A stretch of DNA of 30,052 nucleotides, from positions 1-30,052 of the forward strand of contig NZ_JAEDAM010000100.1 in NCBI RefSeq assembly GCF_018420025.1, read 5' to 3'. Below are positions 1,398 to 29,272 of this stretch, piece after piece. Within the stretch, counting starts at the first letter, position 1, and the number at the start of each line of letters is the position of its first letter. This DNA is from Candidatus Vampirococcus lugosii (GTDB lineage: Bacteria; Patescibacteriota; Gracilibacteria; Absconditabacterales; Absconditicoccaceae). The position numbers and the translations under genes were made by a program. The notes below the pieces were generated by a model. That model did not search any database and was not told the DNA's origin. It worked only from the letters and a program-made list of their open reading frames with translations.

Positions 1398-2114
1398 ATG
1401 AGCTCGCCAAGACATATATGATTTATTCCTGATTGAAATAGAACTTGGGCAAAATCAAAATGAATTCATAAATTCTTTTGACATTTGGAGTGATTTAATA
1501 ATGTTATATCTTTGGTAAAATATGTTTTTGCAAATACGGATGTTGAAGTTTTTAGTGTTTGGTGATTGAGTACTGAAAACTCTTTATCAAGAAATGAAGA
1601 CGAATTAGAATACCTTTTTAAATTATATGAAAAAATTCCTTCTGAACTTGATGATTTTTTGCAAGAAAATAAGATAAATTTTAAATTAGTTTGAAATAGA
1701 GATTGATTACCTTGATATCTTACAGATTTTTTTGTAGAAAAAGAAAAAAAATTTAACTTTTCTTGATCAAATAAAACTTTTGTGTTGGCGGTAAATTATT
1801 GATGAAGGGATGAAATAATAAGATGAGTTAAATCTCTTATTAGTGATAATGTTAATTGTTGAAATTTAGTTTCTAAACTTGATTCTGATTTGCTTTCAAA
1901 ATATCTTGATTTTTCTGATTTACCTTTGATTGATTTAGTTATTAGAACTAAATGAAATAAGGCAAAAAGATCTTCTTGATTTATGTTGTGGTGGATATGA
2001 TATGCAGAATTATATTTTTCTGATAAGTTGTGTCCAGATTTTACAAGTGAAGATTTGGAACAAGTTCTTGAATGGTTTTGCGATATTCAAAAAGATAGAA
2101 ATTTTTGAAAATAA
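1398..2114 (+). CDS. uppS: Undecaprenyl-diphosphate synthase (cis-isoprenyl transferase)
   Basis: 238 aa under table 25. Hallmarks: GFIPDGNRTWA (the G of DGN is TGA at 1434-1436), WGLSTEN, AVNYGGRDEI, DLVIRTKGNKAKRSSGFMLWWIGYAELYF...CPDF. No in-frame TAA/TAG (checked codon by codon). Confidence 0.9.
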
Positions 2115-2142: not shown

Positions 2143-3273
2143 ATGAACTTCTCTATAAAAAATAATGATTTGAATGATGTTTTGGATTTATGTATGAAAT
2201 TTATTTCCAAAAGTTCAACTTTACCTATATTGGAAAATATTTGTATTGAGGCTTGAGAAGATGGAGTTGTTTTTAAAGCAACGGATATGGAAAAATATAT
2301 TAGTTTTAAATTACCTGTTGATGTGCTTACTGAAGGTTCGCTTACTGTTAATTGAAAAATATTTTTGGATATTATAAGAAATATTGAATCGGATGTTGTA
2401 AATTTTAATAAAGATGATAGAAATGAAATATTGTATTTGAATTCAAATGAAGATAAATTTGAAATAAATTGAATAGCATCATCAGAATATATAGCTTCAC
2501 CCAAAATTGATTTGGATGAAAGTATTAGTTTATCTGCAAAAAATTTTGTTAATTGAATATCAAAAGTTACTTATTCTGTTACAGAGAGAAATTTCTCTCC
2601 TATATTGACATGATTACTAATTAGATCTACTGAAGATTGACTTGCATTTGTTTGAACTGATTCTTTTAGACTTGCAGAATATAATATTCCTGTGAATTTA
2701 AATAAGTATTTTGATATTATTGTTCCTAAATTAAATATTATTGAAATTCAAAAAGTTTTAGATTTTTTTATCTCCAAATGATGAGATGATTTTGAATTAA
2801 ATTTTTCAAATAATTTAATTTCTTTTAAATTAAAAACTGATGAATTTAGTATATATTTAACTTCTATTTTGATACAATGAAATTTTCCAAATTATAAAAA
2901 TGAAAATATTATGCCTACTAATTCAAATACTGATTTTGAAGTTCCCAAAAATGAACTTGAAAAAGCAATAAGAAAAATATCTATTTTTACTAGAGATATT
3001 AATAATTTTATTGATTTGTCTATTTCTTCATCTTGAAATATTTTTATAGAATCTGGACAAACTGATAAAGGTAATGCAAAAACTTCTATTAATACAAAAA
3101 TAAATTGAGATGATGTTTATTTTGGTGTTAGTTGAAAATATATTCAAGATTTTTTGAAAAATATAGATTCGGATACTGTTATTGTTAGGATTGTTGATAA
3201 TCAAAATCCTATTGTTTTTAAAGATAGTCAAGATAATAATTTGACTTATATTGTCAGACCACTGGTTAAGTAA
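2143..3273 (+). CDS. dnaN: DNA polymerase III beta sliding clamp
   Basis: 376 aa. Frame checked codon by codon, no TAA/TAG. Motifs: LPILENICIEA, FVGTDSFRLAEY, ILIQGNFPNYKNENIMP, C-terminal ...LTYIVRPLVK*. Starts 29 nt after uppS. No dnaA upstream. Confidence 0.9.
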
Positions 3274-3296: not shown

Positions 3297-3935
3297 ATGA
3301 AAATAAATAATAAATGATTTACTCTTGTTGAACTTATGATAGTTCTTTCTATAATATGAGTTCTTTTTGGTGTTTTTTCTAGATTATTAAGTTTTGAAAA
3401 TAGAGATTATATTAGATGAGAGTGATGTGTTAATCATGTTTATTGAGAAATAAAAAATTATTTTGATAATGCATCAACATGAAAATGAATATATACATGA
3501 TGAAATGATTTAGAATTCCCTAGTTTATATTCAGTACAATTTAATACTTGAGATAATAAAGTGTTATTTAAATATGATACTGTTAGTTCAACAGGTCAAG
3601 ACTATAAAGAAATTTTGCTTTCTTGAACTTGAAGAGATTCCAATTTTTGTTTTGATGAAAATGCATGATATCATATTAATATAGATAAAGTGAATTTGGA
3701 TAAAATTGCTATGAATAAATTATTACAATCGGATGTAAAGACTTCTCCATTTACATTACATGAAACTAATGATAGTATTGTTACTTGACATGTTGAATTT
3801 GTTTTTGAAAAATGAGATTTTAAAAGAATAATAAGTAAGATAGAATTTGATAAAAGGGTTAGTAGAATTTATCATAATAAATGTGTTCATCGGTGAGATG
3901 ATTATGAAACTTGTGAAACTTGGTCAGATAATTAA
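3297..3935 (+). CDS. Type IV pilin / prepilin with class III signal peptide, candidate major pilin
   Basis: 212 aa. N-terminus MKINNK-G|FTLVELMIVLSIIGVLF is a prepilin peptidase site with Glu+5, and the invariant Gly-1 is TGA at 3315-3317. The C-terminus has a Cys-x10-Cys pair (NKCVHRGDDYETCETW) resembling the pilin D-region disulfide loop. Confidence 0.75.
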
Positions 3936-4056: not shown

Positions 4057-5241
4057 ATGAAAGATATCAGATTAATTATTGATATTTGAAATTGATATCT
4101 AAAAGGTATCGTAGTTTGAAATGAAGATTGAAAAAATATTCTTTTGGCTAGAGATTCTTTAAAAACTAAATGAATGAGAAAATGAAGAATTCTAGATGTA
4201 GATGATTTTGTTTATTCTATAAGATCTCTTTTGGATAGTTTTGAAAAAAAACTATGATGAGATTATTTTGATGATGTTACTATTTGAGTTTCTCATCCTG
4301 AAATGAAAATCAAAAGATTATCTGAACAAAAAAGAATAGTTTGAGATAAAATATTGCAAGAGGATGTAGATCATTTATCTAGTTTAGTTGATGATACTAG
4401 TTGAATTCAAAATTATGAAACTATAAAAATAATGCCTGTGAAGTGGGTGATAGATGATGAAACGAAATTAAAAGACCCTCTAGGCATGGAATGAAGAAAA
4501 CTTGAAATTGTGGCAGACGTTTTTATGATACCAAAAAACTATTACAATAGTTTATTAGATGTTTGTGAAAAGCTTGAATTAGATTTGTCTGATGTTGTTC
4601 CTAATATATTATGATCTGCTGAAGTTGCATTGGATTTTGATTCCAAAGATTTATGAACATTGCTTTTGGATATTTGAGCTAATCAAACTAGTTATGTTAT
4701 TTATGAAGATGGTTATCCTGTACATTATGGGGTAGTTCCTATTGGTTGAGAAGATGTAACAAAAGATATATCTATTTGAATGCAAGTTGATATTAAAGAA
4801 GCTGAAAAAATGAAATTAGAAGTTTGAGATATCTATATGGATGATGATATTCCTGAACAAAGTGATAACAGTATAGATACATCTTTTTTGTCTGATATAA
4901 TAGCTGCTAGGTATGAGGAAATATTTGATTACATAAATAAAGATCTTATAGATTTATGAAAAGATGCGAGATTGCCTTGATGAATTAATATGATTTGATG
5001 AGCATCAAAACAAAAAAATTTGGATAAACTTGCAAAATTTCAATTTAAATTAGCTACTTCAAGTTGAAGAGATAATTTTACATGATTTTGAGAAGTTTCC
5101 AATAATTTATCTTATATAAGTTGTTTATGAGTTTTTTATTGGGGGATGAAATATCCTTGATCTTTTTCCAAATGATTGGGTATGTGAATGTGATTCTCTT
5201 GGTTGGGAAAGATATTTAAATATATAAAAGATATGTTCTAA
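4057..5241 (+). CDS. ftsA: Cell division protein FtsA (actin-like ATPase)
   Basis: 394 aa, frame checked codon by codon. IIDIGNGYLKG (phosphate-1), LLLDIGANQTSYVIYEDG, VPIGGEDVTKDIS, INMIGGAS. C-terminal amphipathic helix GKIFKYIKDMF. Sits immediately upstream of ftsZ. Confidence 0.85.
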
Positions 5242-5313: not shown

Positions 5314-6549
5314 ATGAATATGCAAGAATTTGTTCCAGATTTTGTTCCTTGAGCTAGAATTAAAGTAGTTTGAGTTGGTTGAGGTTGAGCTAATACTGTA
5401 AATAGAATGATAGAAGATTGAATGCATTGAGTAGAATTTATTACTGTAAATACTGATGCACAGGCTTTATCTAGTAGTTTAGCTGATAAAAAAATTAATA
5501 TTTGATTAAATATTACTAGATGATTGTGAGCTTGAGCTAATCCAGAAGTTGGTAGGAAATCTGCTGAAGAAAATATTGATGAAATAAAAAAAATTTTACA
5601 AGATACTGATATGATTTTTGTTACTGCTTGAATGTGATGATGAACTTGAACTTGAGCAGGTCCAGTAATAGCACAAGCAGCAAAAGAAATGTGAATTTTG
5701 ACAGTTTGAGTTGTTACTAAACCTTTTACTTTTGAGTGAAGAAAAAGATTTGATAATGCAAATGAAGGCTTAGAAAAAATTAAAGCATCGGTTGATACAT
5801 TGATAGTAATTCCTAATGATAAAATTTTTAATATTATAGATAAAAAAACTACTTTTAAACAAGCTTTTTCTATGGTTGATAAAGTTTTATTGTTGTGAGT
5901 TCAATGAATATCTGATTTAATAATTAAACCTTGAGATATTAATATAGATTTTGCAGATATAAGAGTTATTATGGAAAATTCTGGTACTGCTTTATTATGA
6001 ATTTGATATTGAGATTGAGAAAATAGGGCAGTGGATGCAGCTAGGAGAGCAGTTGATAATCCTTTGTTGGAAGCAAATTTGGAATGAGCTGAAAATATTA
6101 TATTTGCAGTTACATGATGAGATGATTTAACTCCTGTAGAAGTGCAAGAAGCATCTAGGGTAGTTGAAGAAATAGCAAATCCAGAAGCAAATATTATTTG
6201 GTGAATGACTTTTGATGAAGGTTTTGAATGAGAAGTAAAAGTTACAATTGTAGCAACTTGATTTCCAGAATCTACTCAAGAAAGTATGATAAGATGAGCA
6301 AAACAGTCTAATGTAGGTATGAGAAGAACTAGATGAGATGATTTTGTAGCAAAAGCTATATGATGAATGTGATGAGAAAAATCTAATTCTACAAAACAAA
6401 ATTATTCTAATTCTAATAATTATTCTAATTCTAATAATTATTCTAATTCTAATAATTATGATTCTTGACAATCTTGATATAATCAAAACAATAAATCATC
6501 TAATGATATAGAAACTCCTGCTTTTTTGAGAAAAAAATTATGAAAATAA
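5314..6549 (+). CDS. ftsZ: Cell division GTPase FtsZ
   Basis: 411 aa, frame checked codon by codon. ARIKVVGVGGGGANTVNRM, NTDAQAL. In the tubulin signature AGMGGGTGTGAGP, all six Gly of GGGTGTG (5635-5655) are TGA. C-terminal conserved peptide DIETPAFLRKKLGK. Confidence 0.97.
6400..6459. repeat. 18-bp tandem repeat (aattattctaattctaat x3.3) inside the ftsZ C-terminal linker
   Basis: Three perfect copies at 6400-6453 plus a partial copy. In frame they encode (NYSNSN)x3. This also generates the artefactual antisense track ORF 6127-6486 (RIIIRIRIII...). Confidence 0.95.
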
Positions 6550-12490: not shown

Positions 12491-12500
12491 TTTTTTGTAT

Positions 12501-13592
12501 ATGTTTGATAATATTATAAAAAAATTTATTGAAAATAAATGAAAAAATAGATTTAATATTAAAGATAAAATATTTTTTTTTAGAGAATTAGCATATTTAA
12601 TAAATTGATGAATTGTAATAACTGATTCTATTTTGATGATAAAAGAAAATTCTGAAAATATTGCTATTAAAAATCTTTGTTGAGAAATATATTCTTCTTT
12701 AAAAAAATGAGAACAATTTTCAAGAACAATATCAAGATTGCCGAAATATTTTAATGATGGTGATGCAAATATTATTAGATCATGAGAAGGTTCTGGTGAA
12801 TTAGTTAGAGTTCTTAAATATTTAGCAAATGAATATGATTTTTTGTATGATATTAAAAATAAATATATTTGAGCTATGATTTATCCTGCTTTAATATTTT
12901 TTGTATCATTGATTGCAGTTTATATTATATTTACAGTCGTTTTACCTTGAATTTTGGTAATAGTACATGATTTTGATGATTTAGAATTACCTTTTGCTAC
13001 TAAAGCATTGATTAATATTACTGATTTTTTTGTACAAAATAATATATCTATAATTATTGTATTAATTATGTCAATATTAGCTTTTTCTATATTTTTATGA
13101 ATACAAGAATGAAAAAGATGGTTTGATAAACAAATATTTAAAATTCCTATTTTTGGAAATTTTACAAGGAAATATTTATTAGTAAAATATTTAAGATATA
13201 ATAAATTATTGATAAGTTCTGGAATGTCTTATAAAGAGCTTTATTCTTCTCTAAAAAGATTATTTAATAATTATCAATATATTTCTATGATTAATGATAT
13301 TCAAAAAAATATAAATATTTGACAAGATGTTTTGGAACCACTTAAAAATTATAGAAATATAATACCAGCAGATGTTTTTGTTTTATTAAAATCTTGACAA
13401 GAATCTGCAAATATGATTGAAGCTATAGATAATGCAATAGAGTTATATCAAGAAGAATTTAATAAAGATTTAAATAATTTAAGTAAAATTATAGAACCAA
13501 TTTTGGTAGTTTTTGTATGATGAATTGTTGCATTTATTGCTTTATCAGTATTTTGAATAGTTTGATCTATATTAGATTCTGTAGCTTTATAA
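12501..13592 (+). CDS. pilC: Type IV pilus / T2SS platform protein (GspF/PilC family)
   Basis: 363 aa, frame checked codon by codon. Two GspF-type repeats (FFFRELAYLINGGIVITDSI...IIRSGEGSGELVRVLKYLA and LISSGMSYKELYSSL...LLKSGQESANMIEAIDNAIELY). Three TM segments. Confidence 0.85.
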
Positions 13593-13610
13593 TTAATAGT
13601 TATTTATTCT

Positions 13611-14144
13611 ATGTTTTTTAATAAAAAAATAAATTATTGATTTACATTGATAGAAATTGTGTTAGTAATTATTATTATATCAATAATATTAATTTTTATA
13701 ATATTTTATGGGTATTGACAAATAAAGACAACACAATTTAGAATTGATAAACAATCTCTTATTGATATTCATCAAAAAGTTCATAGTTCTACTTTGGGAT
13801 CAAATATTTATTATTGAGAAAGATTTGATTATCTTAAATTAAAATTGGAAGATCAATCCGATAATATAAATTTATATATTTCTTGAGCAAATTCAAAAAT
13901 GTTTTATGAAAGAACTAAACTTAATAATTCATATATATCTTGATTTAATTATTCTCAAAATTTAGAAGATGAAATTTATTTAAATATGAAAGCTTATGAA
14001 TTGTCTTGTTCAATAGAATCTTGAGCCGATTTGTATACTTGATGAAATTTATATTTTGATTTAATATCAACTAATTGAGCTGAAAAATATTGTTTTGATA
14101 TAAATCTTAGTTCTTGTAAAATTTTTGAATATAAATGTGATTAA
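13611..14144 (+). CDS. Prepilin-type pseudopilin
   Basis: 177 aa. MFFNKKINY-G|FTLIEIVLVIIIISIIL, with Gly-1 as TGA at 13638-13640 and Glu+5 present. Confidence 0.75.
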
Positions 14145-14173
14145 TTTAATACTTAAAATTTATTTTGTAAAAA

Positions 14174-14743
14174 ATGAAAAAGTGATTAACTTTGATAGAA
14201 GTTATGTTTTCTATAGCTATATTTGGAGTATGAGCAGTTTATGTCTTATCTAGTTTGATAGATAATATTTCTTTTTTTGAAAGAACTAATTTGAGAAATG
14301 AAGCAACATTTCTTGCAAAAGAAGGAATAGAAATTGCTTACAATATAGTAGATAGTAATATAAATAGATGAATGGCTTGGAATTGTCTAGGTTATGATTC
14401 AAATTATAATTGTACAGAAAAAATATGAGATTCAAATAATTATTATAAATTTTCTATAGATAAAGATTGATATTTTAATACTTCTATTACTAATAAAGAT
14501 TTTGATGATAATATTATTTATTATCATACTTGAACAAGTGATTTATTTTGGTACAATCACGATGATACTTGACAAGAAACTTATTTCTCTAGATATTTAT
14601 ATTTTACATGAGTTTATTCACAAGGAGATTCATGAATTATTGATAAAAATAAAATATTAAAAGTAAATTCTATTGTAGAATATAAAAAATGAGCTTTTAC
14701 TTGAGAAGTAATTTTGGAAAGTTTTATTTGAAATGTTAGATAA
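14174..14743 (+). CDS. Prepilin-type pseudopilin
   Basis: 189 aa. MKK-G|LTLIEVMFSIAIFGVGAV, with Gly-1 as TGA at 14183-14185. Confidence 0.75.
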
Positions 14744-14770
14744 TTTAATTTTTTTGAAAAATTTAAAAAT

Positions 14771-15343
14771 ATGAATAAATGATTTACACTTATAGAAATA
14801 ATGATATCCGTAGTTATATTATGATTACTTATTGTAATTATTTTTTCTGTTTATAATACAGTAGCTGAGTTATCTATAAGAATAGAAAATGAAAAAAATC
14901 TTTCAAATGAATTACTTTTTGTTTCACAAAATATTCAATGATTTGCAGATAGTTTAAGTTTAGATTTTAGTAAATATTCTGATTTAGATACTACTAAATG
15001 ATTTACTTGAAGCTTGTATTTTACTTGAAATGATTTTGTAAATATTTATTTAACATGAGATACTTCGTCAGATATTGATAATATAAGAAATAGTAAATCT
15101 TGGATAGAAATGAATAAAAATTGAGAGATAATGAAACTTACTGATCCAAATAAAATTTATATAAGAAATTTAAATTTTAAAATAATTCCTTTTGATGAGA
15201 TAAGATGATTAGATTTTGATAAAATATATAATCAATGATTTTGGATTTTTGTAGAAGCTTATACAAATAATTATTCAAAATATTCAAGTGTTTATGATAT
15301 TTCTTCAAATGTTCAAGCTTTTTTTAATGTAAGACAATATTAA
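14771..15343 (+). CDS. Prepilin-type pseudopilin (PulJ/minor-pilin-like)
   Basis: 190 aa. MNK-G|FTLIEIMISVVILGLLIVI, with Gly-1 as TGA at 14780-14782. Confidence 0.75.
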
Positions 15344-16162: not shown

Positions 16163-17080
16163 TTAAATTTGTTTAATTTTATGATCTTTACCTTGTATTA
16201 TATTATTTGTTCATCATCATTTTAATCATTTTGATTTTGCAAATTCTTTTGCATTTATATTTTTTGTAAAAATAACAAAATTTCAATCATTATTATAAAT
16301 AATAATATTTTCTCAATCAAAAACTTGTTTAGCAATATTTAATATATCTTTAAAATTTATTTTATTTAATTCTTCGTATTTTGAAATATTTATTATTTTA
16401 TCAAATCATTCTTTTGATTCTCAATCTATATTTTCCAAAATAGATTTTACAATATTTTGTTTCATTGATTCATATTCTCATTTTATTTGTTCTAACTCTT
16501 TTTGTGATTTATTTAATTTTTCTATTATTTGTTTAGATGTACAATCAAGTTTATCAGATATATCTTGTAATAATTTATCTTGTTCTTTAATATAATTATA
16601 TACTTTAGTTCAAGTATATGCAATAATTCTTCTTACTCAAGAAGATACAGCTTCTTGAGATATTATTTTAAATATTCATATTTGTGAAGTATTATCAACA
16701 TGAGTTCATCAACATAATTCTATAGAAATAGTTTTTTTTTCTCAATTTCATATACTTATTACTCTTACTACATCTCAATATTTTTCTTCAAAAAATGCTT
16801 TTGCTCAAGCTTGCAAAGCTTGTTCCAAACTCATTTCTTTTTTATTGACTGATAATCATTCATATATAATATTATTTATATTCTCTTCTATTTGTTGTAT
16901 TTCTTTATTTGATAAAGCTTTTTTGCAAGTAAAATCAAATCTTATATAATCATTATCTACAAGTGAACCTGCTTGTTTAGTATTCTTTATTATTTTATTT
17001 AATTCTCAATGAAGTAGGTGAGTGGCTGTATGTGCTCTCATATTTCAATTTCTTTTTTTTATATCAATTTTTAATTTCAT
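16163..17080 (-). CDS. alaX: Free-standing alanyl-tRNA synthetase editing domain plus C-Ala domain (AlaX-like trans-editing factor or C-terminal half of a split AlaRS)
   Basis: 305 aa. Zinc/editing motifs HTATHLLH and ELCGGTH. GSLVDNDYIRFDF, GAKAFFEEKYGDVVRV, IGIFKIISQEAVSSGVRRIIAYTG, a coiled-coil linker, and a C-terminal AKSKGLKGGGTNNIIQG that parallels the E. coli AlaRS C-terminus GGKGGGRPDMAQAGG. Starts about 15 residues before HxxxH. No aminoacylation domain is encoded. Confidence 0.8.
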
Positions 17081-17243: not shown

Positions 17244-19670
17244 ATGCAAATAAAAATAAAAATTATACTATCTTTTTTGTTATTGTTTTTGATATACTTT
17301 TTAAGTAAGGATTTTTTTATTTTAAATGTATATGCTCAATCTGCTGATACTTCTGATTGAGATATTTCTAGTATTGTTTCTATTTTGGAAGTAATAGTTC
17401 AATTTTTTTATATTATAATACGACCATTTATTTCTATAGCTTGAGCTAGTTTGTCAAATGAATTTGTTTATGGTAGTATATTCAATTTAGATTGAACATT
17501 ATATATATTTTGGAATATGATGAAAAATTTTGCAAATTATATTATTGCATTTGTATTTTTGATTTCTATATTTTTTTATTTTATAAACTATAAACAAGAC
17601 GGTTTCAATCCTAAATCATTAATACCAAAATTTTTGGTAGCTACTGTATGAATACAAGCAAGTTGGTTTTTGTTAGCTGCTTTGATAGATTTATCAACAG
17701 TTATGACTTATAGTATATGATGATTGCCTTTGACCGTTTTGGATAATTTTAAAGAAGATGAAGAAGCATTAATGTTGCCCGTTATGAGAATGGAAATGTG
17801 AGATCAATGATTATGATGAATTACAAAATCTGATAGAACATTATTTTATACAAATCCTTGAAATTCAGAAACATATGCAACTTGTGTTACCGATTGACAA
17901 GAAATTGATCGAGATTATTTAAATGAAAATTCATGATCTTTGCAAGAACAACTTGATCAATTTGATTGAAATTATAATCTTAATACTCAATGATGTGTTT
18001 TCTCAAATAGACTTTATTGACAAGGATGAGGTAATAATTGGAATGATGATAGAGATTGACTTATAGAAGCTTGAAATAATTTATGTGATCCAAGTGGTGA
18101 TGATTGTTATTCAATTAAAGAATTTACTGATAGTGTTAAATGATTTTCTTGACCTTTGTATACACTTTTTGGAAGTTTATCAAATATTGCTGATTTATGA
18201 GTTTCTTGAGTTTGATGATGAGGTGGAGCAGAAGTTGGGGCATACAGTATTATAGCTATGATGAAAATAATTATTTTTTTAGCACTTATTATACCATTAC
18301 TTACATTGACAATAGTATTGATAATAAGATGAGTTTTGATGTGGCTTATTATAGCTTTGGCACCATTATTAGTAGTTTCATGGACTTTTGGATTTAATAT
18401 TAGTTGATCTTCAGATAAATATTCTATGTCGTCAGTTTTATCACTTATATTTTTACCAGTAATTGTAGCTTTTGCAGTAAGTATTAGTATTATATTCTTG
18501 ACAGTATTAAATAATACATTAAAAGTATGAGATTTTCAATGATCTACTTGAGCATTAGCAGTATTATGATTAGAAAAAAATGTAGATGATGCATGAGAAG
18601 AAAAATGACAAGAAATTTGTTTTAAAATTCCATTGTGAGATGAGAAAGAAACAAATATTTGTTTTAATTCTCCTGAAAATGCAGTATGAATTTCTCCATT
18701 TTTGGATATACTTGGTTGGATAGTTGTTAATTTATTTGCTGTAGCTCTTATGTGGTCTATAATATTCGCTGCACTAAAATCAGCAAAATTGACTTCTTGA
18801 GTTGTTAATTGGGTTGATGGCATATCAAAAGAAGCATTCAAAACTGCTCCTGTTATTCCTACACCTTGGTGATCTCAAAGTATTTGAAGTCTTGGTAGAG
18901 TTTGAGAAAGTTTAAGTAAACAACCTTGACAAATAATAAGTAGACAATATGCAGAATCTTGAATACAAGATACTATGAGAACATTAGAATGAACTTTTTC
19001 TTGAACAAATTCTCAATGAATTCAGAATTTTAAAAATTCTGTTAAAAAACCATGATATGATTCATCTACATTTACTCAAACAGCTAGTTCAGCTATTTGA
19101 GCTTGACAACATATATGAGATATTCAAGAAGATGTTTTATCTGAATTGAAAGATAAAGATAAATCAGGTATGTTTAATTCAGCAAATTCTTTGACAGATA
19201 TAGCACAAGATCCTGATATGAGAAGTCATTATAATTCAAATTATTGAAATATAGATAATTTATTATCCCAAACTAATCGTAGTGATGGTAAAACTTTATT
19301 AAGTGAACAAGAATTAAAAGAAGTTTATTTTAATTTGGAAAATAATATGATATCAAATTGATATGATAAAAAATTATCTATAGATTGAAATAGAATATAT
19401 AAAAGTAAAGATTGAAGAAAATTTTATCATTTTTCTTGAGAAAATATGGATGTTAAATTAATATGAAATTTAGATTTAGATTATGTTGATAAATCAAAAG
19501 CAAATGAATTTATAAATAAAATATATAATATTGATGTTGATAATTATAAATCTAATTTAGAAAAATTATGATTTAAAATTTGAGATGATATAAGTATTAA
19601 AGGTGAAAAATATATAATACAAGATACATGATCTTGAATAAATTTTGAAAAAGAAGACCCTAGTTCTTAA
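17244..19670 (+). CDS. Large polytopic membrane protein, paralog 1 of 3 (VirB6/TrbL-like topology, hypothesis)
   Basis: 808 aa, whole frame read codon by codon (only TGA interruptions). Signal-peptide-like N-terminus (...LNVYAQS). Motifs: WNMMKNFAN, KQDGFNPK, IQASWF. About 190 aa Cys-containing loop. TM cluster MMKIIIFLALIIPLLTLTIVLIIRGVLMWLIIALAPLLVV. ICFNSPEN loop. KLTSG...KTAP. About 270 aa soluble C-terminal tail. Confidence 0.75.
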
Positions 19671-19711
19671 TAATTTAAAATAAAAAAATTTAAAATAAAA
19701 ATTAAATAAAT

Positions 19712-21562
19712 ATGTTAAAAAATAATAAATCTTTTTTATTGATAATATTTGTAATATTCTTTTTGATGCCTTCATTTGTATTTGCATCTTGATGAGAGGA
19801 TACAGATTTTTTGATTAAATTTTTGAATAGTTTAATATCTTTATTTAGTTGGTTTTGGATTATTCCATCTATTATTGCAGGTACTTTGATGACCAATGAG
19901 CTTGTATATGGTGAATTAATGTATTTGGATAAATATCTTTTTGAGATATGGAATATGTCCAAAAATTTTGCAAATTTTACTTTGTGATTTTTATTTTTAT
20001 TTTTGGTTTTAAAATCGTTTTATAAATGAGAGCCTTGAAGTGTTGTCAAATCATATCTTCCCAAAATTACAGTAGCTTGAGTTTTGATTCAAATGAGTTG
20101 GTTTTTGGTAGCAGCTATTATAGATATTAGTATAGTTGCTATGTCAGCAGTTTCTACATTGCCAAATTATTTTGTAGATTCTACAGATGGTAAAGATAAT
20201 GAATTGACAATTACTATGCCTGAGAAATGTGATTTTTTGAAAGCATTTAGTGATCCAAATAATGTTGATATTTGTACTTGAGAAATTGGTGATATCAAAT
20301 TGAATGATATAAGTGCTAATGCATTGAATGCAAGTTGACCTTTACTATATTTTTGATTTACTGTATTAAAATTACAACAATTTTCAAATTCTGAAGTTAC
20401 AAGCTGGGAAAATATAACGGCAGAATTTTTGATAAAATTATTTGTAGTATTAATGTTTACTATTCCTTTGATTGTTTTGATGGTAATAAATTTTATAAGA
20501 TTGTTTTGGCTTTGGATGTTTATAGTTTTTTCTCCTTTTGTAGTATTGGATTCTATTTTTTCTAATGCAGTAAGTTCAAAAATGGAATGATCTGTAAAAA
20601 AATTAACTCTTTCAAATTTTATATGACTTGCTTTCCAGCCTGTAATTGTAATTGGTATGTTGTCTGTAATATTAATTTTTGTAGTATGACTTAATACTAT
20701 ATTTCAAATTGATGATAATCAAGCTCAATCTGAAGATCTTATAGAATCCTTGAAAGAAACTATGTGAGTTTTTAGTTCTGATAATGAATCTTGATGAATA
20801 ATGTTGTGATGAGAAAATGGTTGACAAATTCTGGCTGCATGAGATATTATGAGTGATGTTTGAAATGTTTTGTGATGAGCTATATGATATTTAGTTTTGG
20901 CTATATTTGTGTCTTTTATGGTTTGGTCATTGGTTAAATTATCTTTCAAAACTTCTGAAATTACTTCATGAGTTTCTGATAGTATATTTAAATTTACTGA
21001 ACAAACTATGAAAACAGTTCCAATACCAGGTACTAAAATTAGTTATTGAGCATTGGAAAGATGAAAAAGTAATTTAAGATGAGAAATATTCTGAATGACT
21101 CAAGCTCAACAAGCATCATGAATAGAATCTAAACTAGATAGTTTGTTTGGTAATAATTGATGATGAAGTGGGTGAGGTACTAGTTGATCAGTAAGTCCTG
21201 GTCCATCAATTAATAGTTTAGAAGAACAAAGTTTAAAAGTAAAGATACAAGATTGAAATGTACTTCAATCAAAGATATTCTGGAAAGAAATTATAAGATT
21301 ATGAGAATCTTGAAAATCATTAAATCCTAATCAAGATAAAAGGTTAAAATCTATTATAGAACAACGAGCATTAGAATATGGAAAAAATCATTCTAATCTT
21401 AAGATATTAACTAATTGAAAAGTAGATCGGAATAATGAAAATTTTAAAAGATTAGTTAATTATATTATGGCGAATTCATGAGATGTGCCATGATGAGGTG
21501 ATAGTAATTTATTGAGAGATAATCCTGATAGTAGTTCTATTGAATATTGATTAAAAAAATAA
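19712..21562 (+). CDS. Large polytopic membrane protein, paralog 2 of 3
   Basis: 616 aa, frame checked codon by codon. Signal-like N-terminus (...FVFAS). WNMSKNFAN, IQMSWF. TM cluster LFVVLMFTIPLIVLMVINFIRLFWLWMFIVFSPFVV. Gly-rich tracts written as TGA runs. EITSG...KTVP. Track ORF 20084-20281 is an internal fragment. Confidence 0.75.
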
Positions 21563-21591
21563 TTAATTTTAATTAATTTATATATCAAAAA

Positions 21592-23376
21592 ATGAAAAAA
21601 AGTAAAATTATTTTATTAATTGTATTAACATTAATATCAAGTTTATTCTTGAATAATTTTGCTTTTGCTTCAGAAACTATTAATTATCAAACTGCATTAT
21701 CAGATAGAGTGGAGTCATGATTTTGAATGTTTGAAACAATATTAAATGGAGCTTATATAATTGTTTGGCCATTACTTTTGGTTGCTTGACAAGCTATGGA
21801 TAATCAATTGATTTATGGATCTATAATTCATATAGATGTTCATTTGTGGAATATATGGAATATGTCCAAAAATTTTGCAAATTTTGCTTTATGATTTGTA
21901 TTTTTAATATCAATATTTTTGTATATTTTAAATATTAAACAAGATAAATTTAATCCAAAAAAAATATTTCCCAAAATGCTAGTTTGAGTAGTATCTATAC
22001 AAGCAAGTTGGTTTATAGTTTCTATTTTATTGGATATTTCTACTATAATTACTTATAGTGTATGAGCTATGCCTTTGAATATTATATCGGCAGATGCAAC
22101 ACTTGATAAAAAAATTCTTTTACAAAATAGTAATTTGGATTTGGAAAGTTTATGAAATTCTTTTGGTACTGGTGCTGAAAATCAAACTTGGTTTTCGGAT
22201 TGAAATACTAATTATATAAATTGTACATTGGAAAATAAAGATTGAGATTATTATTTTTCTTGAACATTATTTGAAGATTCTATAAAAGATGCACAAAATA
22301 AATGAATAGATGTAAATGATTGAAAATGTATATTACAAATTATGTGAAATAGATTAGTTCCAGCTGATGATTCAATTCCTATATCTGAAACTATAAAAAA
22401 GATAGAAGAAGATTGAACATATTGACAAGATGATTGAATTAGTATGTCAGAAATAATAAATAGTGCTAATTGACTTACATGAATTTTTTATACTCTTATA
22501 TGAAGTTTTTTGGGGACTTCTACTATTTCTACATCTGGTTCTTGAATTACAGGAGATACATGAACAGCTAGTTTGTGAGCTATTTTTGTTATGAAAATGA
22601 TTATAGCTCTTGCAATGATTGTTCCTATTTTTGCATTGGTTATTGTGTTGATTATGAGAATATTTATTATGCGGGTTTTGATAGCATTTTCTCCAATATT
22701 AGCTTTTGTTTATTCTTTTGATTTGTGATTATCAAAAAAATTATGAAAATATTCACTTTGATGATTTTTATGGTTAATATTTTTACCAGCTTTTGTTGTG
22801 TTTGCATTAAGTATTTGATTTATTTTTATGACAATACTTACTGAAAGTATATGAAATGTTAATAAAGATAATCCATTATCTATTTCTGCATCTGATGTTG
22901 GGAATGATAAAAATAATTGTTGGGAATTGTGAGAATATTTTCCACAAATATGTTTTGGTTCGCCTGACGAAAATACTTCATGATTTTCAACATTTTTGGA
23001 TTATTTTTCTTGGTTGATAGTTAATATTTTTGGTATTATAATACTTTGGAGTATGGTTTTTTCTGCTATTCAATCCTCAAAAATAACTTCTTGAATTGCC
23101 AAAAGTATTCAAAATTTTTCAAAAGATATGTTAAAAACTGCACCGATACTACCTGGTTGAAATAGTTATTGATCCGTTAAACAATGAATGTGAGAATTAT
23201 CTACTATACCAAGATCAATAACATCAAAACAATATAATGAATGAGAAGTTTGATGATTTGCTAAATCTGTTCAAGGTTTAGTAGATAATAATAACAAAAA
23301 AACAAAAGATTGAGATCAAGATGATGATCAAGATGACGATAATCAAGATGAAAATAAAAATAATCCAAATCAATAA
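21592..23376 (+). CDS. Large polytopic membrane protein, paralog 3 of 3
   Basis: 594 aa, frame checked codon by codon. Signal-like N-terminus (...FAFAS). WNMSKNFAN, KQDKFNPK, IQASWF. MKMIIALAMIVPIFALVIVLIMRIFIMRVLIAFSPILAF. ICFGSPDEN. KITSG...KTAP. Acidic tail DGDQDDDQDDDNQDENKNNPNQ. Confidence 0.75.
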
Positions 23377-23640: not shown

Positions 23641-24312
23641 TTACAAAACTAATTCTCATCAATTTCTTTTTAGCCATTCTTTATGATTTTGGTAATCAGG
23701 CATATATTTATAAACTAAATCCCAAAATTTTGGAGAATGATTTTTTTCTTTTGTATGACAAAGTTCATGAATTATAATATATTCAATAACTGAAACAGGA
23801 GCCAACATAATTTTCCAGTGAAAATTTATATTATTATTTGAAGTACAAGATCCCCATCTATTTCATAAATCTTTTATAGATATTTTATTTATTTCAAATC
23901 AGTTTTCTTCTGCCAAAAGTTTAACTCTAGGAAATATTTTTTTATTAAATCTTTTTTTGTACCGTTCTACAAAAATTTTTTTTCAATTAAAAATATATTT
24001 TTTATTTAACTCAAAAGAATTTTTATAAAATCTTAATTGAAAATCAACATTTTCTACTAATTTAAGTTTATACATTCTTCATAAATAATAAAATCATTCT
24101 CAATTTACAAATTCTCTATTTTTGAAAGAATATGATAAACATTTTTTTTCTTCAAGTTTGGTATATATCCATAATTGTTTTTTATCAAAAAAATCTTTAA
24201 TTTGTTCATCACTTGCTTGATTAGGAGCTTTAATAATAATATTATTATTTCTTTCTATTGTGACACAAATTGTTTTTCTTTTTGATTTTATTATTTCATA
24301 ATTTAAATTCAT
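23641..24312 (-). CDS. YgjP-like zinc metallopeptidase (DUF45/M48-related), typical companion of type I hsdR
   Basis: 223 aa, frame checked codon by codon. YEIIKSKRKTICVTIE, NRWGSCTSNNNINFHWKIMLAP, IEYIIIHELCHTKEKNHSPKFWDLV (HExxH). Confidence 0.85.
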
Positions 24313-24393
24313 ATGTCACTAAATTATTTATCTAAATGATAAGCAAGATTTAATAAGTTTTCTATTAAATTATTTTTTAATTCAATATTTTCT

Positions 24394-27300
24394 TTAGATA
24401 TTTTTTATCAATCAAGATTTATTAATTAAATCATTTATTTCAAGTCTTACTTTATCTTGAGATCATTCATCATTCCAAAAATTTACAATTTTTAATTTTT
24501 TACTAAAAATTTCATAAATTTCAATAGTTAATTTCATTAATTTTTGATTTTGTTCTTGATTTATTTCTTTTTTTTCAAAAATATTATTTTTGATAATATC
24601 AAAATATGGTATTTGATTATTGTTTAATCATTCAATATTTTCATTAGGTCTTTTCATAATATCTTGCAAAACTTCTTCCAAATCTTCAATCATTTTTTCC
24701 CAATTATTTTTTTGGTCTTGTATTATTTCTTGCAACTTATCAGATAATGTTTTGAAAAATTCTGGGTCTTTTTCAAAATTTTCAGATATATGATATCTAA
24801 TTGCATGTTCCATCTCGGAAGCTTTTGATTTATTAGATTTTATTCAATTTATAAATTTATCAAAATCATCATCCATAATAGAAATAGGAGGAATATTTGG
24901 ATCTATTCATTGACTTGTAATGTATTTATCTATAAGTTTTTTTACTTTTTTTCAAGTTCATATTATATTCAATTGATTGTCTCTATATCTATTTTTGGCA
25001 GAAAACAAAATAAATCAAAATGCCTTGTAATTATTTATATATTTCAAAATCGCTTTATCTGGACTTACTATATCAATACTTTTTGATAATTTTCTATATG
25101 CAACAGTAAATTTTGCTCTCAAACTTACATCTTCAAGTAAATCAATACATAAATCAATATCTTCATTTGTATCAAAACTTTTAATTCAATTTTCTTCAAA
25201 AATTTGTACTACTTTTCTATATTTTTCATCTAATCTTGGAATTTCTTCATCCAAATTAATCATAGCTCACTTAATATCATTATCTGAAAATATTTCAAGT
25301 GCTTCTTTTAGATTATTTGCAATTCAATAATAATCTACCAAATATCAACAATTTTTTCAACTTGCAGTTCTGTTTACTCTAGCAATAGTTTGCAATAAAT
25401 TATGTTCAATTAATTTTTTATCCAAAAATAAAACTTGTTCAATAGGTGCATCAAATCAAGTCAAAAGCATATCTGTAACTATTATTATTCATAAACTACT
25501 TTTTTTATTTTTGTCTTTATTTTCAAAAGGTTTTTTGAAGTTTTCTATTTGTGTTTTGTGAATTACAGAGTTAGTATATTTTTTATAAAATTCTTCATCA
25601 TTATGATTACTTGATATAATTACAGTAGTTTCAAGTTCTTTCAATATTTCTAAATCAATAAAATCTTTATTTTTCAAATTTGAAATTCAATTTTTTATTT
25701 TTTCAATCTCTTGTTTTATTGCCTTATCAAGATATTTTTTGTATAATATTGCTGATTTTCTACTATTTACAACTACTTGAGCTTTGAATCAGTTGATAAA
25801 TATCTTATCAATATAATATTGTATCATATCATTAGCTTTTTGTTCAATAATTTCTGGAGCATCAAGATAATTTTGTTTATTTCAATATTTTTTTAATATA
25901 GCTTGTCTTTCTTCATCTGTATAATCTTTAAACATATCAATAAATTCTTTATCCATTGCTTGTTTATCTTTTATAATATCTTGAGAAGTTCTTCATTCAT
26001 AAATAATTTGGACTGTAGCTCAATCTTTTACAGCTTGTTCTATAGTATAAGTATCAATATATTCTCAAAATATTTCATGGGATTTTTTTCTTAATTTTCA
26101 AGTAATTATTGGTGTACCAGTAAATCAAATTTTAATAGCATTTGGCAGTGCATTTGATAAATTTGCTCATAAAGTTCAATCTTGACTTCTATGTGCTTCA
26201 TCTATAAGTAATAAAATATTTGGACTATTGTTTAATTCTGTAAGTAATTTAGTTTCTTTTACATATTTATCAGGATTTTCATTATCTTTGGATTGAAATT
26301 TGTGTATCATTGCATTTACTATATTTGAATCATCGCTTGATATTTCTTTTAATATATTTTTAATATTATTATCTTTGTTATTTTTGGGATAAATAGTTTC
26401 TCAAATAGTTTTTGCTGTTTCTCAAATTTGTCTTTGTAAATCTGTTCTATCTGTAAGAAAAATAATTTTAAATTTTTTTCATTCTTTTGTTTTTCTAAAT
26501 TTCCTAATCAAAAAAATCATAGTAAGAGATTTACCACTTCCTTGAGTATGCCAAATAATTCAACCTTTTTGTTCTTGAGATAAAGATTTATTAGTAAGTT
26601 TATTTATTGCTTTATTTACAGCTCTATATTGTTGATATCTACACAATATTTTTATTTTTCTTCATTTATCATCACTTTTAAATACTATAAAATTATTTAT
26701 AATATCAAGAATATTTTCTTTTTTCAAAACTCATTTTATAAGAATATTTTGAGAATTATCATTTTTTTCTAAATCTTTCCATTCAAGATAATGTTCAGCA
26801 TTTGCTTTTATAGTTCATATTCTTGTTTCTTGTCTACTTGTTGCAATCAATAATTGATTAAAATAAAATAATTTTTCATTTCATTCATTATTTTCTGCTC
26901 ATCTATCATTTTGATATCTTTTGAGTTGATAAATAGCTTCTTCTATAGCTTCACTAATTTTTGGTGATTTGCATTCTACTATTCATATAGGAATTCAATT
27001 AATAAAAAGTGTAATATCTGGAATTATATGTTTTTCTGTTCAAGGAATATTTACTTTGTATTGACTAATAGCTGTAAAAATATTATTTTCTAGATTATCA
27101 AAATCTATAATTTTTACACTGGGACTTTTTTCTCAAGTAATTCTATTTTGATCAACATTTAATCAATTAAGTAATATATCAGTTGCTTGTTCATTTGCTT
27201 CAAAAAGATTTGTTTTATTTATTTTTTTTAATTCTCAAAAAATTTCTTCAATTTGATCAGTTTCCAAAAAAGAATTTATTTTTTTTATAGATTTTGTAAA

Positions 27301-27447
27301 TAAATCTTCAATCAATATTTCTTTAAAACTTTGTCTAAAAGTAATATTTGCATCATCTTTATTTCAATATACAATATTCCAACCTAAATTTTGTAATTGT
27401 TCTAAAAAAGGTTTTTCTACATACAAATCCTCATTATAGTGAGCCAT
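24394..27447 (-). CDS. hsdR: Type I restriction enzyme R subunit (HsdR), intact
   Basis: 1017 aa. All ~1018 codons were checked for TAA/TAG and none found. The track shows only fragments because of TGA=Gly. N-terminus EKPFLEQLQNLGWNIV, FINGIPIGIVECKSP, Walker A WHTQGSGKSLTM, LLLIDEAHRSQ, GFTGTP, LLTGFDAP, QTIARVNR, and a long helical C-terminal domain. Confidence 0.92.
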
Positions 27448-27461
27448 AGTTTACTTGTTAT

Positions 27462-27842
27462 TTATTTATTTAAATTATTTCAATAATATTTTTTAATTCT
27501 ATCTATGTTATGATTTTCTTTTATATTTTTATGATAAATTTCTATTAAATCAAGTTCAATTAAATCTATCTCTTTTTTATCTTCTTTGTAAGCATAAACT
27601 AACCTTAATGATTTATTGTCTTTTAAGCTTTTACAAGGAAATTTTCTAACTTTCATAATAGGTATTTTAACTTCTTTTCATAGATCAGAAATTTGAATTA
27701 TATTATCTCAATATCCTTTTGGATATCTTTCAATTGCTAATTTTACAATATCTAAGTCATCTTTTAATGATGGGTATTTCTTTTGAAGTTTTTTAAATTC
27801 CTTTTTAAACTCTTCAAGTTTATTATATAAAAAATTAGTCAT
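27462..27842 (-). CDS. RelE/ParE-superfamily-like toxin (putative)
   Basis: 126 aa, frame checked. EFKKEFKKLQKKYPSLKDDL...MKVRKFPCKSLKDNKSLRLVYAYKEDKKEIDLIELDLIEIYHKN fits the usual RelE/ParE/Gp49-type pattern (K-x-R ... R-h-h-Y ... IY-x-K). The start overlaps the upstream gene by 8 nt. The stop is 14 nt upstream of the hsdR ATG. Confidence 0.55.
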
Positions 27843-28575
27843 TATTCTCAGATTTACTAATATACTCTCAACTTCTCATATGTGCTAATTGGTAAGGTAT
27901 CTTATCTCATATATTTTTTGTTGATATGTATGGCATATCATTGTGAGAATAATCACTTACTTGTTTTGCATTCATATTTGATAATTTTTCTATTACATTA
28001 TCAATAATTTCTATCTCTAATCAATTGAAAACACTTAAATCATATCTTATATTTGGTATAAATCTTATTTGTTTATATCATTTAAATTCTGTTTCTAATT
28101 TTTCTATTTGTTTATCATCTTCCATTTGTGTTAGTACATCATCAATATCTTTTGGAACAGGTCATCTTGGTAGTTTTATATAATCTTGATTAGATATATT
28201 TTCCCACTTATTTTCATAGTAATTAAAATCACTAAAGTATAATAATTTATTTAATACTGTTTTTCATATATTTGGCTTTTGTCAGCACTTTGTTAATATA
28301 TAAAGTATAAGATTTTTAAATTTTTTATGGTCATCATCTTCTTTTATCTTTTTATATTCTTCTTTTTTTGTTCAGTCTAAAAGTTCATCTTCATCAACCT
28401 CAAAAAGATTAGCTATCTGTAATAGTAATTTATCACCTTTTTTTAGTATTCTTTTATCATTTTCAATATTTGCAAGACTAACTCTATTTATTTCAAGATA
28501 ATTAGCTATCTGTTCTTGTGTTAATTTTGAATCTTTTCTAAGTTCAGTTATCTTTTCTCATAGTGTTTTAGTCAT
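27835..28575 (-). CDS. XRE-family HTH fused to a DUF4065/Panacea (SocA-like) antitoxin domain
   Basis: 246 aa, frame checked codon by codon. HTH: LGEKITELRKDSKLTQEQIANYLEINRVSLANIENDKR. Panacea-type core: KTVLNKLLYFSDFNYYENKWENISNQDYIKLPRGPVPKDIDDVL ... VSDYSHNDMPY. Confidence 0.7.
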
Positions 28576-28594
28576 TTTTTAAAATAATATATTA

Positions 28595-28615
28595 AATTAC
28601 TTAGTAATAGTAATT
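28595..28615. promoter_or_regulatory. Inverted repeat (aattact-N7-agtaatt) just upstream of the HTH gene; candidate autoregulatory operator
   Basis: aattacttagtaatagtaatt begins 20 nt upstream of the ATG at 28575 and contains the overlapping palindrome ttact-t-agtaa. No binding data. Confidence 0.3.
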
Positions 28616-29255: not shown

Positions 29256-29272
29256 TTTAAATTAAAAACAAT

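What the first reader, a model, noticed from the sequence alone, without database searches (positions are those of the whole stretch)
5314..6549. UGA is decoded as glycine across the window (table 25), so standard-code ORF calling breaks every gene
In ftsZ, all six Gly of the invariant tubulin motif GGGTGTG (5635-5655) and the VGVGGGG P-loop glycines are TGA. The invariant Gly-1 of four prepilin cleavage sites is also TGA (3315, 13638, 14183, 14780). So are the DGN glycine of UppS (1434) and the CGGTH glycines of the AlaRS editing site. Reading TGA as sense joins the fragmented track ORFs into full-length uppS, dnaN, ftsA, ftsZ, pilC and hsdR with no frameshifts. TGA appears to be the dominant Gly codon. 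This places the organism in the Gracilibacteria/Absconditabacteria (BD1-5/SR1) group. Any prior annotation made with table 11 would have missed most of the content.
Basis: partly seen in the sequence, partly recalled or inferred. Interest (0 to 1): 0.6.

Follow-up and report, generated by a model that had tools for sequence, protein, structure and literature searches.

The report
TGA read as glycine (known code)
This stretch comes from a tiny, very AT-rich SR1/Absconditabacteria bacterium that reads the stop codon TGA as glycine, and almost certainly the arginine codons CGA and CGG as tryptophan; both changes are real here but already published for this group.

Summary
Under table 11 the window has 5 ORFs of 100 aa or more. 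With TGA as sense it has 26 genes covering 89% of it, all ending in TAA or TAG. Genome-wide, ORF coverage rises from 7% to 82%.

TGA means glycine, not tryptophan:
- In TGA-masked FtsZ, 28 of 32 core TGA positions align to Gly of B. subtilis FtsZ.
- In TGA-masked HsdR, 40 TGA columns average 49% Gly and 0.4% Trp in 121 homologues. Background Gly is 2.6%.
- In orthologues from two relatives, TGA swaps with GGN 894 times and with TGG 4 times.

The machinery fits. A 74-nt tRNA(UCA) carries glycine identity elements. tRNA-Trp is CCA. A dimeric GlyRS is present. Only an RF1-type release factor was found, and no prfB, in a 92%-complete genome.

TGA makes up about 80% of glycine codons, the extreme of its family.

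Table 25 is not the whole code. CGA and CGG (10 codons in the window) behave as tryptophan, as Shulgina and Eddy predicted for Absconditabacteria in 2021. This scan has already noted that change in other genomes.

The deposited protein checked already uses table 25. Verdict: real, well supported and already known.

The parts
5314..6549 (+). ftsZ, 411 codons, of which 41 are TGA
   Evidence: Pfam Tubulin 1.3e-51 and FtsZ_C 2e-28. With TGA masked as X, 28 of 32 core TGA positions align to Gly of B. subtilis FtsZ 2vam and none to Trp (counted by eye).
5629..5655 (+). GMGGGTGTG tubulin signature; all six Gly are TGA (five lie inside 5635-5655)
1398..2114 (+). uppS, 18 TGA codons, including the DGN glycine at 1434
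   Evidence: Pfam Prenyltransf 1.8e-47, profile positions 1-218 of 219
2143..3273 (+). dnaN, 13 TGA codons, all three beta-clamp domains present
3297..3935 (+). prepilin; Gly-1 of the cleavage site is TGA (3315); CGG codon at 3891-3893
   Evidence: Pfam N_methyl 2.4e-8
4057..5241 (+). ftsA, 31 TGA codons
12495..13592 (+). pilC / T2SS-F family gene, 16 TGA codons
   Evidence: Pfam T2SSF 1.2e-33, two stretches
13611..15343 (+). three prepilin genes in a row; Gly-1 is TGA at 13638, 14183 and 14780
   Evidence: Pfam N_methyl hits
16163..17080 (-). 305-aa free-standing AlaX-like editing protein; both Gly of CGGTH (16700-16714) are TGA
   Evidence: Pfam tRNA_SAD 1.1e-17
24394..27447 (-). hsdR (type I restriction R subunit), 1017 codons, 41 TGA
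   Evidence: Pfam HSDR_N, SWI2_SNF2 and T1R_D3. With TGA masked, the 40 aligned TGA columns average 0.49 Gly and 0.004 Trp in 121 homologues.
23641..24312 (-). YgjP-like metallopeptidase, 8 TGA codons; the CGG at 23962-23964 sits on a Trp/aromatic column
   Evidence: Pfam YgjP-like 3.7e-58. Distant homologues at that column show W 56, F 24, A 11, K 6, and R not among the four commonest. The deposited translation has Arg there.
17421..17423 (+). CGA codon in a hydrophobic stretch of the 808-aa protein; read as Trp
   Evidence: The three matching orthologues held show TGG, CGA and ATC here; context
22672..22674 (+). CGG codon in a hydrophobic stretch of the 594-aa protein; read as Trp
   Evidence: TGG in 2 of 2 relatives held
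21365..21367 (+). CGA codon. The other window CGA/CGG codons are at 7383, 10489, 10558, 17910 and 21428.
   Evidence: TGG in the one relative held; coordinates

Best explanation
The window is ordinary chromosome of an Absconditabacterales (SR1) bacterium with 21% G+C. It is probably the published Vampirococcus genome.

TGA is read as glycine. An extra tRNA with anticodon UCA carries the glycine identity set and is presumably charged by the dimeric GlyRS (inferred). No release factor 2 was found to read UGA as stop, so only TAA and TAG terminate. Because TGA is the only AT-rich glycine codon, AT mutation pressure has made it the main one, at about 80% of Gly codons. That is the extreme of a GC-dependent trend among relatives.

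The same genome also reads the rare codons CGA and CGG as tryptophan. The tRNAs with anticodons UCG and CCG carry Trp-like identity features (G73, A1:U72, no A20). The real code is therefore table 25 plus CGA/CGG = Trp.

Shown here: codon positions, alignments and the gene inventory. Inferred: which synthetase charges which tRNA, and decoding in vivo.
For: ORF structure:
- Window: 5 against 26 long genes. Genome ORF coverage: 7% against 82%.

Composition:
- TGA is 4.9% of codons, GGN 1.3% and TGG 0.7%.
- TGA as Gly gives a normal 6.2% Gly. TGA as Trp would give 5.6% Trp and 1.3% Gly.

Alignments with TGA masked as X, so the query carries no bias:
- FtsZ: 28 of 32 core positions are Gly in B. 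subtilis FtsZ.
- HsdR: mean Gly 0.49 at TGA columns against 0.026 background; mean Trp 0.004 against 0.73 at TGG columns.
- 230 orthologue pairs with two relatives: of 2604 TGA codons, 1304 align to TGA, 894 to GGN and 4 to TGG.

Machinery:
- tRNA(UCA) is 74 nt with G1:C72, C2:G71, G3:C70 and U73, like tRNA-Gly(UCC). tRNA-Trp has anticodon CCA.
- tRNA(UCA) is found in 22 of 24 same-family genomes. In the 12 copies read out (this genome and 11 relatives) it lies beside a Tyr and Ala tRNA pair, followed by Arg and Glu tRNAs in 10 of them, and U73 is invariant.
- One class-I release factor only. It scores 396 bits to prfA and 223 to prfB, and has PNT and GGQ motifs.
- A dimeric GlyRS is present. 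No selA was found.

CGA/CGG:
- Of 53 reliably aligned codons, 26 align to TGG, 17 to CGA/CGG and 0 to any Arg codon.
- Of 1546 AGA codons, 0 align to CGA/CGG and 2 to TGG.
- 3 of 6 CGA codons fall on invariant Trp of solved CysRS, ThrRS and TrmD.
- The YgjP CGG sits on a Trp/Phe column.
- tRNA(UCG) and tRNA(CCG) have G73, A1:U72 and no A20. The Arg tRNAs (GCG, UCU, CCU) have A73 and A20. G73 is conserved in all 12 tRNA(UCG) copies read out.

Literature:
- Campbell 2013 and Rinke 2013, as cited in PMC8629427.
- Kantor 2013 (PMC3812714).
- Hanke 2014, with proteomics (PMC4032931).
- Shulgina and Eddy 2021 (PMC8629427).
- Moreira 2021 (PMC8080830).
Against: - There is no direct protein evidence for this organism.
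- The genome is 92% complete, so the absence of prfB is 'not found', not proven.
- For CGA/CGG the numbers are small. 10 of 53 aligned codons face unrelated codons. 2 of 6 positions tested against solved structures are variable polar sites (E/D; R/K), and 1 is a hydrophobic site (Leu in the TrmD chains shown).
- CGG rests on 11 aligned codons plus one YgjP column.
- The two relatives used belong to the same family and share the code, so only their TGG codons are unambiguous.
- A tRNA(UCA) with U34 could also read UGG by wobble. Ambiguity cannot be excluded from sequence.
Confidence: 0.9

Rival explanations
1. Plain table 25: TGA is Gly, but CGA and CGG are still arginine. Their alignment to Trp would reflect a few real Arg-for-Trp substitutions or misalignments.
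For: Two of six CGA positions tested against solved structures face variable polar residues, including Arg or Lys in CysRS. One window CGA aligns to AGG in one relative. The deposited annotation reads them as Arg.
Against: None of the 53 reliably aligned CGA/CGG codons faces an Arg codon in relatives, and 26 face TGG. No AGA codon faces CGA/CGG. Three CGA codons fall on invariant Trp. Both cognate tRNAs have G73 and lack A20, unlike the genome's Arg tRNAs.
Confidence: 0.08
2. Table 4: TGA is read as tryptophan, as in Mycoplasma and some insect endosymbionts.
For: ORF lengths are identical under tables 4 and 25. Many public metagenome-derived proteins of relatives are in fact translated this way.
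Against: TGA columns carry Gly and not Trp in homologues that are mostly from outside this group. Table 4 would give 5.6% Trp and 1.3% Gly. tRNA-Trp has anticodon CCA, and the UCA tRNA has a Gly-type acceptor stem with U73 rather than G73.
Confidence: 0.01
3. Standard code: the genes are pseudogenes or assembly artefacts, or TGA marks selenocysteine or programmed read-through.
For: ARAGORN labels the UCA tRNA 'tRNA-SeC', from its anticodon.
Against: There are 15,694 in-frame TGA codons in 798 long ORFs, and no in-frame TAA or TAG. The tRNA is 74 nt, with a normal cloverleaf in the ARAGORN drawing. No selA was found. TGA sits on invariant Gly of essential genes.
Confidence: 0.005

Closest known systems
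[quoted passage not shown] 2013, Rinke et al. 2013, as cited in PMC8629427 and PMC8080830)
   Same: UGA is read as Gly. A tRNA-Gly(UCA) has G1:C72, C2:G71, G3:C70 and U73. RF2 was not found. TAA and TAG are the stops. The genome is small, AT-rich and CPR-type.
   Different: Here TGA is the majority Gly codon, at about 80%, not just an additional one. Two further codons (CGA, CGG) depart from table 25.
Absconditabacteria code predicted by Codetta: UGA = Gly plus CGA and CGG = Trp (Shulgina and Eddy 2021, eLife, PMC8629427)
   Same: CGA and CGG are rare (7.1 and 2.8 per 10,000 codons) and sit on Trp positions. tRNA(UCG) and tRNA(CCG) have G73 and no A20. tRNA-Arg(GCG) serves CGU and CGC. No tRNA-Arg(ACG) was found.
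   Different: Nothing essential. This genome has lower G+C (0.21) than the 0.26-0.38 range that paper gives for the reassigned clades. Vampirococcus is not named in its main text.
Vampirococcus lugosii genome paper (Moreira et al. 2021, PMC8080830)
   Same: A 1.3-Mb Absconditabacteria genome with 38 tRNA genes. UGA = Gly is stated, and the genome was annotated with Prodigal table 25. ARAGORN finds 38 tRNAs here in 1.26 Mb. Three type I restriction systems are reported there, and one hsdR lies in this window.
   Different: That paper does not mention CGA/CGG. I could not verify the organism name directly. It comes from earlier scan notes plus these matching numbers.
Table 4 organisms (Mycoplasmatales, Hodgkinia, Zinderia and others)
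   Same: Loss of RF2, low G+C and UGA captured as a sense codon.
   Different: There UGA is Trp, read through tRNA-Trp(UCA). Here tRNA-Trp stays CCA and UGA is Gly.

Membership tests
Table 25 (UGA = Gly) | In-frame TGA inside conserved genes, at positions where homologues have Gly | tested here: met
   FtsZ 28 of 32. HsdR mean Gly 0.49 against 0.026 background. TGA aligns to GGN 894 times and to TGG 4 times in orthologues.
Table 25 (UGA = Gly) | A tRNA with anticodon UCA carrying Gly identity elements (G1:C72, C2:G71, G3:C70, U73), the rule used in PMC8629427 | tested here: met
   On contig C28 at 27332-27405, minus strand. All four elements are kept in 11 of the 12 copies read out; one has A3:U70.
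Table 25 (UGA = Gly) | No release factor 2; RF1 retained | tested here: met
   One locus only. It scores better to prfA (396 bits) than to prfB (223 bits) and has PNT and GGQ motifs. The genome is 92% complete, so this means 'not found'.
Table 25 (UGA = Gly) | TAA and TAG remain the only stops | tested here: met
   The 26 window genes end in TAA (23) or TAG (3), with no in-frame TAA or TAG. Freeing TAG or TAA does not restore long ORFs.
Table 25 (UGA = Gly) | All other 61 codons keep their standard meaning | tested here: not met
   CGA and CGG behave as Trp.
Table 25 (UGA = Gly) | GlyRS charges tRNA(UCA), and Gly is inserted at UGA in vivo | not testable with these tools
   A dimeric GlyRS gene is present. 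Biochemistry and proteomics exist only for other SR1/BD1-5 organisms (PMC3812714 citing Campbell 2013; PMC4032931).
Absconditabacteria CGA/CGG = Trp code (Shulgina and Eddy 2021) | CGA and CGG fall on conserved Trp positions and interchange with TGG, not with Arg codons | tested here: met
   26 of 53 face TGG and 0 of 53 face Arg codons. 3 of 6 fall on invariant Trp in solved structures. The YgjP column shows W 56 and F 24. CGG alone rests on 12 positions.
Absconditabacteria CGA/CGG = Trp code (Shulgina and Eddy 2021) | tRNA(UCG) and tRNA(CCG) with G73 and without A20 (that paper's Trp-acceptor rule) | tested here: met
   G73 is present in all 12 tRNA(UCG) copies read out.
Table 4 (UGA = Trp) | TGA at Trp positions; tRNA-Trp with a UCA anticodon | tested here: not met
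   Mean Trp is 0.004 at TGA columns. tRNA-Trp has anticodon CCA.
Selenocysteine decoding | Long-arm tRNA-Sec, selA/selB, and rare UGA in a few selenoprotein genes | tested here: not met
   The tRNA is an ordinary 74-nt one. No selA was found. TGA makes up 4.9% of all codons. selB was not searched.

The most novel reading that the evidence does not exclude
This lineage may show the end-state of codon capture. The former stop codon has become the principal glycine codon, at about 80%, against 16-51% in the other genera of its family that were sampled. GGC, GGG, CGA, CGG and CGC are nearly extinct. The same high-TGA state appears in low-GC genomes of two other families. For this particular organism, the CGA/CGG = Trp change seems unreported. 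The deposited table-25 proteome would then carry Arg in place of Trp at most of about 360 CGA/CGG codons counted in called ORFs (some of them in spurious ORFs over the rRNA region).
Probability: 0.5. Interest if true: 0.3.

Novelty: already known. Interest (0 to 1): 0.2.

Why it matters
Practically, every protein-level statement about this genome depends on the code used.
- Table 11 destroys nearly every gene.
- Table 4, which many public metagenome pipelines evidently apply to relatives, puts Trp at about 5% of residues where Gly belongs.
- Table 25 still mistranslates the CGA and CGG codons.

Conceptually, this is a clean and extreme example of AT pressure driving a captured stop codon to become the dominant codon for an amino acid. 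The phenomenon itself has been in the literature since 2013 (UGA) and 2021 (CGA/CGG).

Tried and rejected
- No tRNA lies in the window itself. The decisive tRNAs are on other contigs.
- My first Pfam call for the release factor failed on a coordinate slip and was redone.
- The closest FtsZ database hits could not serve as independent references. Many are table-4 translations with 6-10% Trp. I used solved structures and distant HsdR and YgjP homologues instead.
- The exact FtsZ sequence is not in the protein collection under table 25 or table 4. A different start-codon choice is the likely reason; I did not pursue it.
- ORFs with many CGA/CGG codons on contig C24 (1997-3407) lie beside the tRNA-Met and tRNA-Gly pair. 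They are probably spurious frames over the rRNA operon. They found no orthologue pair except one 105-codon frame, so they barely enter the counts. This was not verified with an rRNA search.
- A DNA search with tRNA(UCA) found no full-length match outside the family. This shows divergence, not absence.
- In-frame TGA in FtsZ was seen in only 5 of 33 sampled families of the class. A zero count in one gene does not prove a standard code. One genome of the window's own family also has no TGA in FtsZ although TGA is 16% of its Gly codons nearby.
- No paper in the searchable library combines Vampirococcus with CGA, CGG and tryptophan.

Full report

Yes. Table 11 gives only five ORFs of 100 aa or more in 30 kb. 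Reading TGA as sense gives 26 non-overlapping genes covering 26,850 of 30,052 bases. Each ends in TAA (23) or TAG (3), and none has an in-frame TAA or TAG.

Pfam then sees near end-to-end matches:
- UppS (profile positions 1-218 of 219)
- all three DnaN domains
- FtsA
- FtsZ (Tubulin and FtsZ_C)
- a T2SS-F/PilC protein
- four N_methyl prepilins
- a tRNA_SAD editing protein
- a YgjP-like peptidase
- a 1017-aa HsdR

There are three small slips. The GGGTGTG motif has five glycines, and the sixth TGA lies just upstream at 5629. Only three of the five P-loop glycines are TGA. The 'AlaRS' is a 305-aa free-standing AlaX-like protein.

The window is contig C95 of a 1.26-Mb assembly with 102 contigs, 21.4% G+C and 92% completeness. 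Across the genome, ORFs of 100 aa or more cover 7% under table 11 and 82% with TGA as sense. Freeing TAG instead gives 10.5%.

**2. Which amino acid does TGA encode?**

*Composition.* TGA is 4.9% of codons, GGN 1.3% and TGG 0.7%. TGA as Gly gives a normal 6.2% Gly. TGA as Trp would give 5.6% Trp and 1.3% Gly.

*Alignment.* I masked TGA as X so the query could not bias the result.
- FtsZ against B. subtilis FtsZ (PDB 2vam): 28 of 32 core TGA positions face Gly and none faces Trp (counted by eye).
- HsdR against 121 diverse representatives at 30-44% identity, plus one at 71%. The 40 aligned TGA columns average 0.49 Gly and 0.004 Trp. Other columns average 0.026 Gly. The query's own TGG columns average 0.73 Trp. 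Gly is the commonest residue in 29 of 40 columns and Trp in none.
- 230 orthologue pairs with 400 kb from each of two same-family genomes. Of 2604 reliably aligned TGA codons, 1304 face TGA, 894 face GGN and 4 face TGG.

Table 4 is excluded.

**3. The machinery**

- ARAGORN finds 38 tRNAs and a tmRNA.
- One 74-nt tRNA has anticodon UCA (contig C28, 27332-27405, minus strand). It has G1:C72, C2:G71, G3:C70 and U73, the glycine identity set used by Shulgina and Eddy (PMC8629427). Its first five acceptor pairs match those of tRNA-Gly(UCC).
- tRNA-Trp has anticodon CCA, with A1:U72 and G73.
- The UCA tRNA recurs in 22 of 24 same-family genomes at 86-99% identity. In the 12 copies read out (this genome and 11 relatives) it lies beside a Tyr and Ala tRNA pair, followed by Arg and Glu tRNAs in 10 of them. 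U73 is invariant, and the acceptor stem shows compensatory changes.
- Only one class-I release factor locus exists (contig C69). It scores 396 bits to prfA against 223 to prfB, and has the RF1-type PNT motif and GGQ.
- No prfB and no selA were found.
- A dimeric GlyRS is present.

**4. TGA is the dominant glycine codon**

The TGA share of Gly codons is 81% in the window and 79% genome-wide.

I sampled 10-20 kb around ftsZ in 20 related genomes. The TGA share falls as G+C rises (Spearman -0.78). These genomes are kin, so this is a trend and not a test.

The ten other genomes sampled from the window's own family have 16-51% TGA at 30-39% G+C. Two other families contain low-GC genomes (21-27%) with 66-89%.

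This fits the idea, already voiced by Kantor et al. 2013 (PMC3812714), that UGA = Gly lowers G+C because all the other Gly codons are GC-rich.

**5. Table 25 is not the full code**

Shulgina and Eddy (PMC8629427) predicted CGA and CGG = Trp in Absconditabacteria. I tested this here.

- *Usage.* CGA is 7.1 and CGG 2.8 per 10,000 codons, against 70.7 for TGG and 210 for AGA.
- *Relatives.* Of 53 reliably aligned CGA/CGG codons, 26 face TGG, 17 face CGA/CGG, 10 face other codons and none faces an Arg codon. Of 340 TGG codons, 37 face CGA/CGG. Of 1546 AGA codons, none faces CGA/CGG and 2 face TGG.
- *Solved structures from standard-code organisms.* Six CGA codons were tested. Three fall on invariant Trp: the W before SPWG in CysRS, a conserved Trp in ThrRS (W in both solved ThrRS shown), and the WR motif of TrmD. 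One falls on a hydrophobic TrmD position (Leu in the chains shown). Two fall on variable polar positions.
- *In the window.* The CGG of the YgjP-like gene (23962-23964) sits on a column with W 56, F 24, A 11 and K 6 among 107 distant homologues. Arg is not among the four commonest residues there. Five of the other nine CGA/CGG codons face TGG in at least one relative held.
- *tRNAs.* tRNA(UCG) and tRNA(CCG) have A1:U72 and G73 and lack A20. tRNA-Arg(GCG), (UCU) and (CCU) have A73 and A20. G73 is kept in all 12 tRNA(UCG) copies read out.

I put CGA = Trp at about 0.9. CGG is somewhat lower because it has fewer positions.

**6. State of the public annotation**

The YgjP-like protein is in the collection twice:
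- as the table-25 translation (NCBI, UniRef, nr), which has Arg at the CGG codon
- as a table-4 translation (Logan)

Many FtsZ and YgjP relatives in metagenome-derived collections have 6-10% Trp, which means they were translated with table 4.

Earlier scan notes call the genome Vampirococcus. That fits the published 1.3 Mb, 38 tRNA genes and Prodigal table 25 of Moreira et al. 2021 (PMC8080830). I did not verify the name independently.

**7. Novelty**

- UGA = Gly in SR1/BD1-5 dates from 2013, with biochemical and proteomic support in other members (PMC3812714, PMC4032931).
- It is stated for Vampirococcus in 2021 (PMC8080830).
- CGA/CGG = Trp was predicted for the clade in 2021 (PMC8629427). 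This scan has since noted it in at least 33 other genomes.
- No paper in the searchable library links Vampirococcus to CGA/CGG.

The finding is correct and important for reading this genome, but it is not new.

Noticed in passing
window 3891, 7383, 10489, 10558, 17421, 17910, 21365, 21428, 22672, 23962 (first base of each codon): These ten CGA/CGG codons are most likely Trp, not Arg. Two lie in hydrophobic stretches, and one lies on a Trp/Phe column of the YgjP-like family. The deposited table-25 translation of YgjP has Arg there.
   Followed up: yes
database relatives of window 5314-6549 and 23641-24312: Many public metagenome-derived proteins of related organisms are table-4 translations, with FtsZ at 6-10% Trp and about 2% Gly. 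The window's own YgjP exists in both a table-25 (NCBI) and a table-4 (Logan) version. Homology searches in this clade therefore meet systematic Gly-to-Trp artefacts.
   Followed up: partly
window 16163-17080 (-): A 305-aa free-standing protein with the HxxxH and CGGTH editing motifs (tRNA_SAD) and a GGG-containing C-terminal tail. It is AlaX-like or a fragment copy of AlaRS. Kantor et al. 2013 mention extra fragmented AlaRS and ValRS copies in SR1 genomes.
   Followed up: no
window 17244-23376 (+): Three consecutive large genes (808, 616 and 594 aa) with 59, 42 and 39 TGA codons and no Pfam match. They have few matches (three each) in the stretches of related genomes held.
   Followed up: no
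window 23641-30050 (-): Probable defence island: a YgjP-like peptidase, a type I restriction hsdR, a 126-aa unknown, an HTH plus SocA/Panacea antitoxin-like protein, and a weak MauJ-like match at the contig end. No hsdM or hsdS was identified among the window's called genes.
   Followed up: no
genome contigs C28:27332-27405 and C15:4052-4123 (outside the window): tRNA(UCA) and tRNA(UCG) both have G at position 37. tRNA-Gly(UCC), tRNA-Trp(CCA) and tRNA(CCG) have A37. G37 is conserved in all 12 tRNA(UCA) copies read out. G37 suggests that tRNA(UCG) derives from an Arg tRNA, and the A37 of tRNA(CCG) suggests descent from tRNA-Trp. That is speculation and was not tested.
   Followed up: partly
genome contig C24:1997-3407 (outside the window): Short ORFs unusually rich in CGA/CGG lie next to tRNA-Met and tRNA-Gly(UCC). 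They are probably spurious frames over the rRNA operon and should be kept out of codon statistics.
   Followed up: no
window 3297-3935 and 12495-15343 (+): Type IV pilus genes sit in two places. One prepilin is wedged between dnaN and ftsA. Further along, a pilC gene is followed by three prepilins.
   Followed up: no
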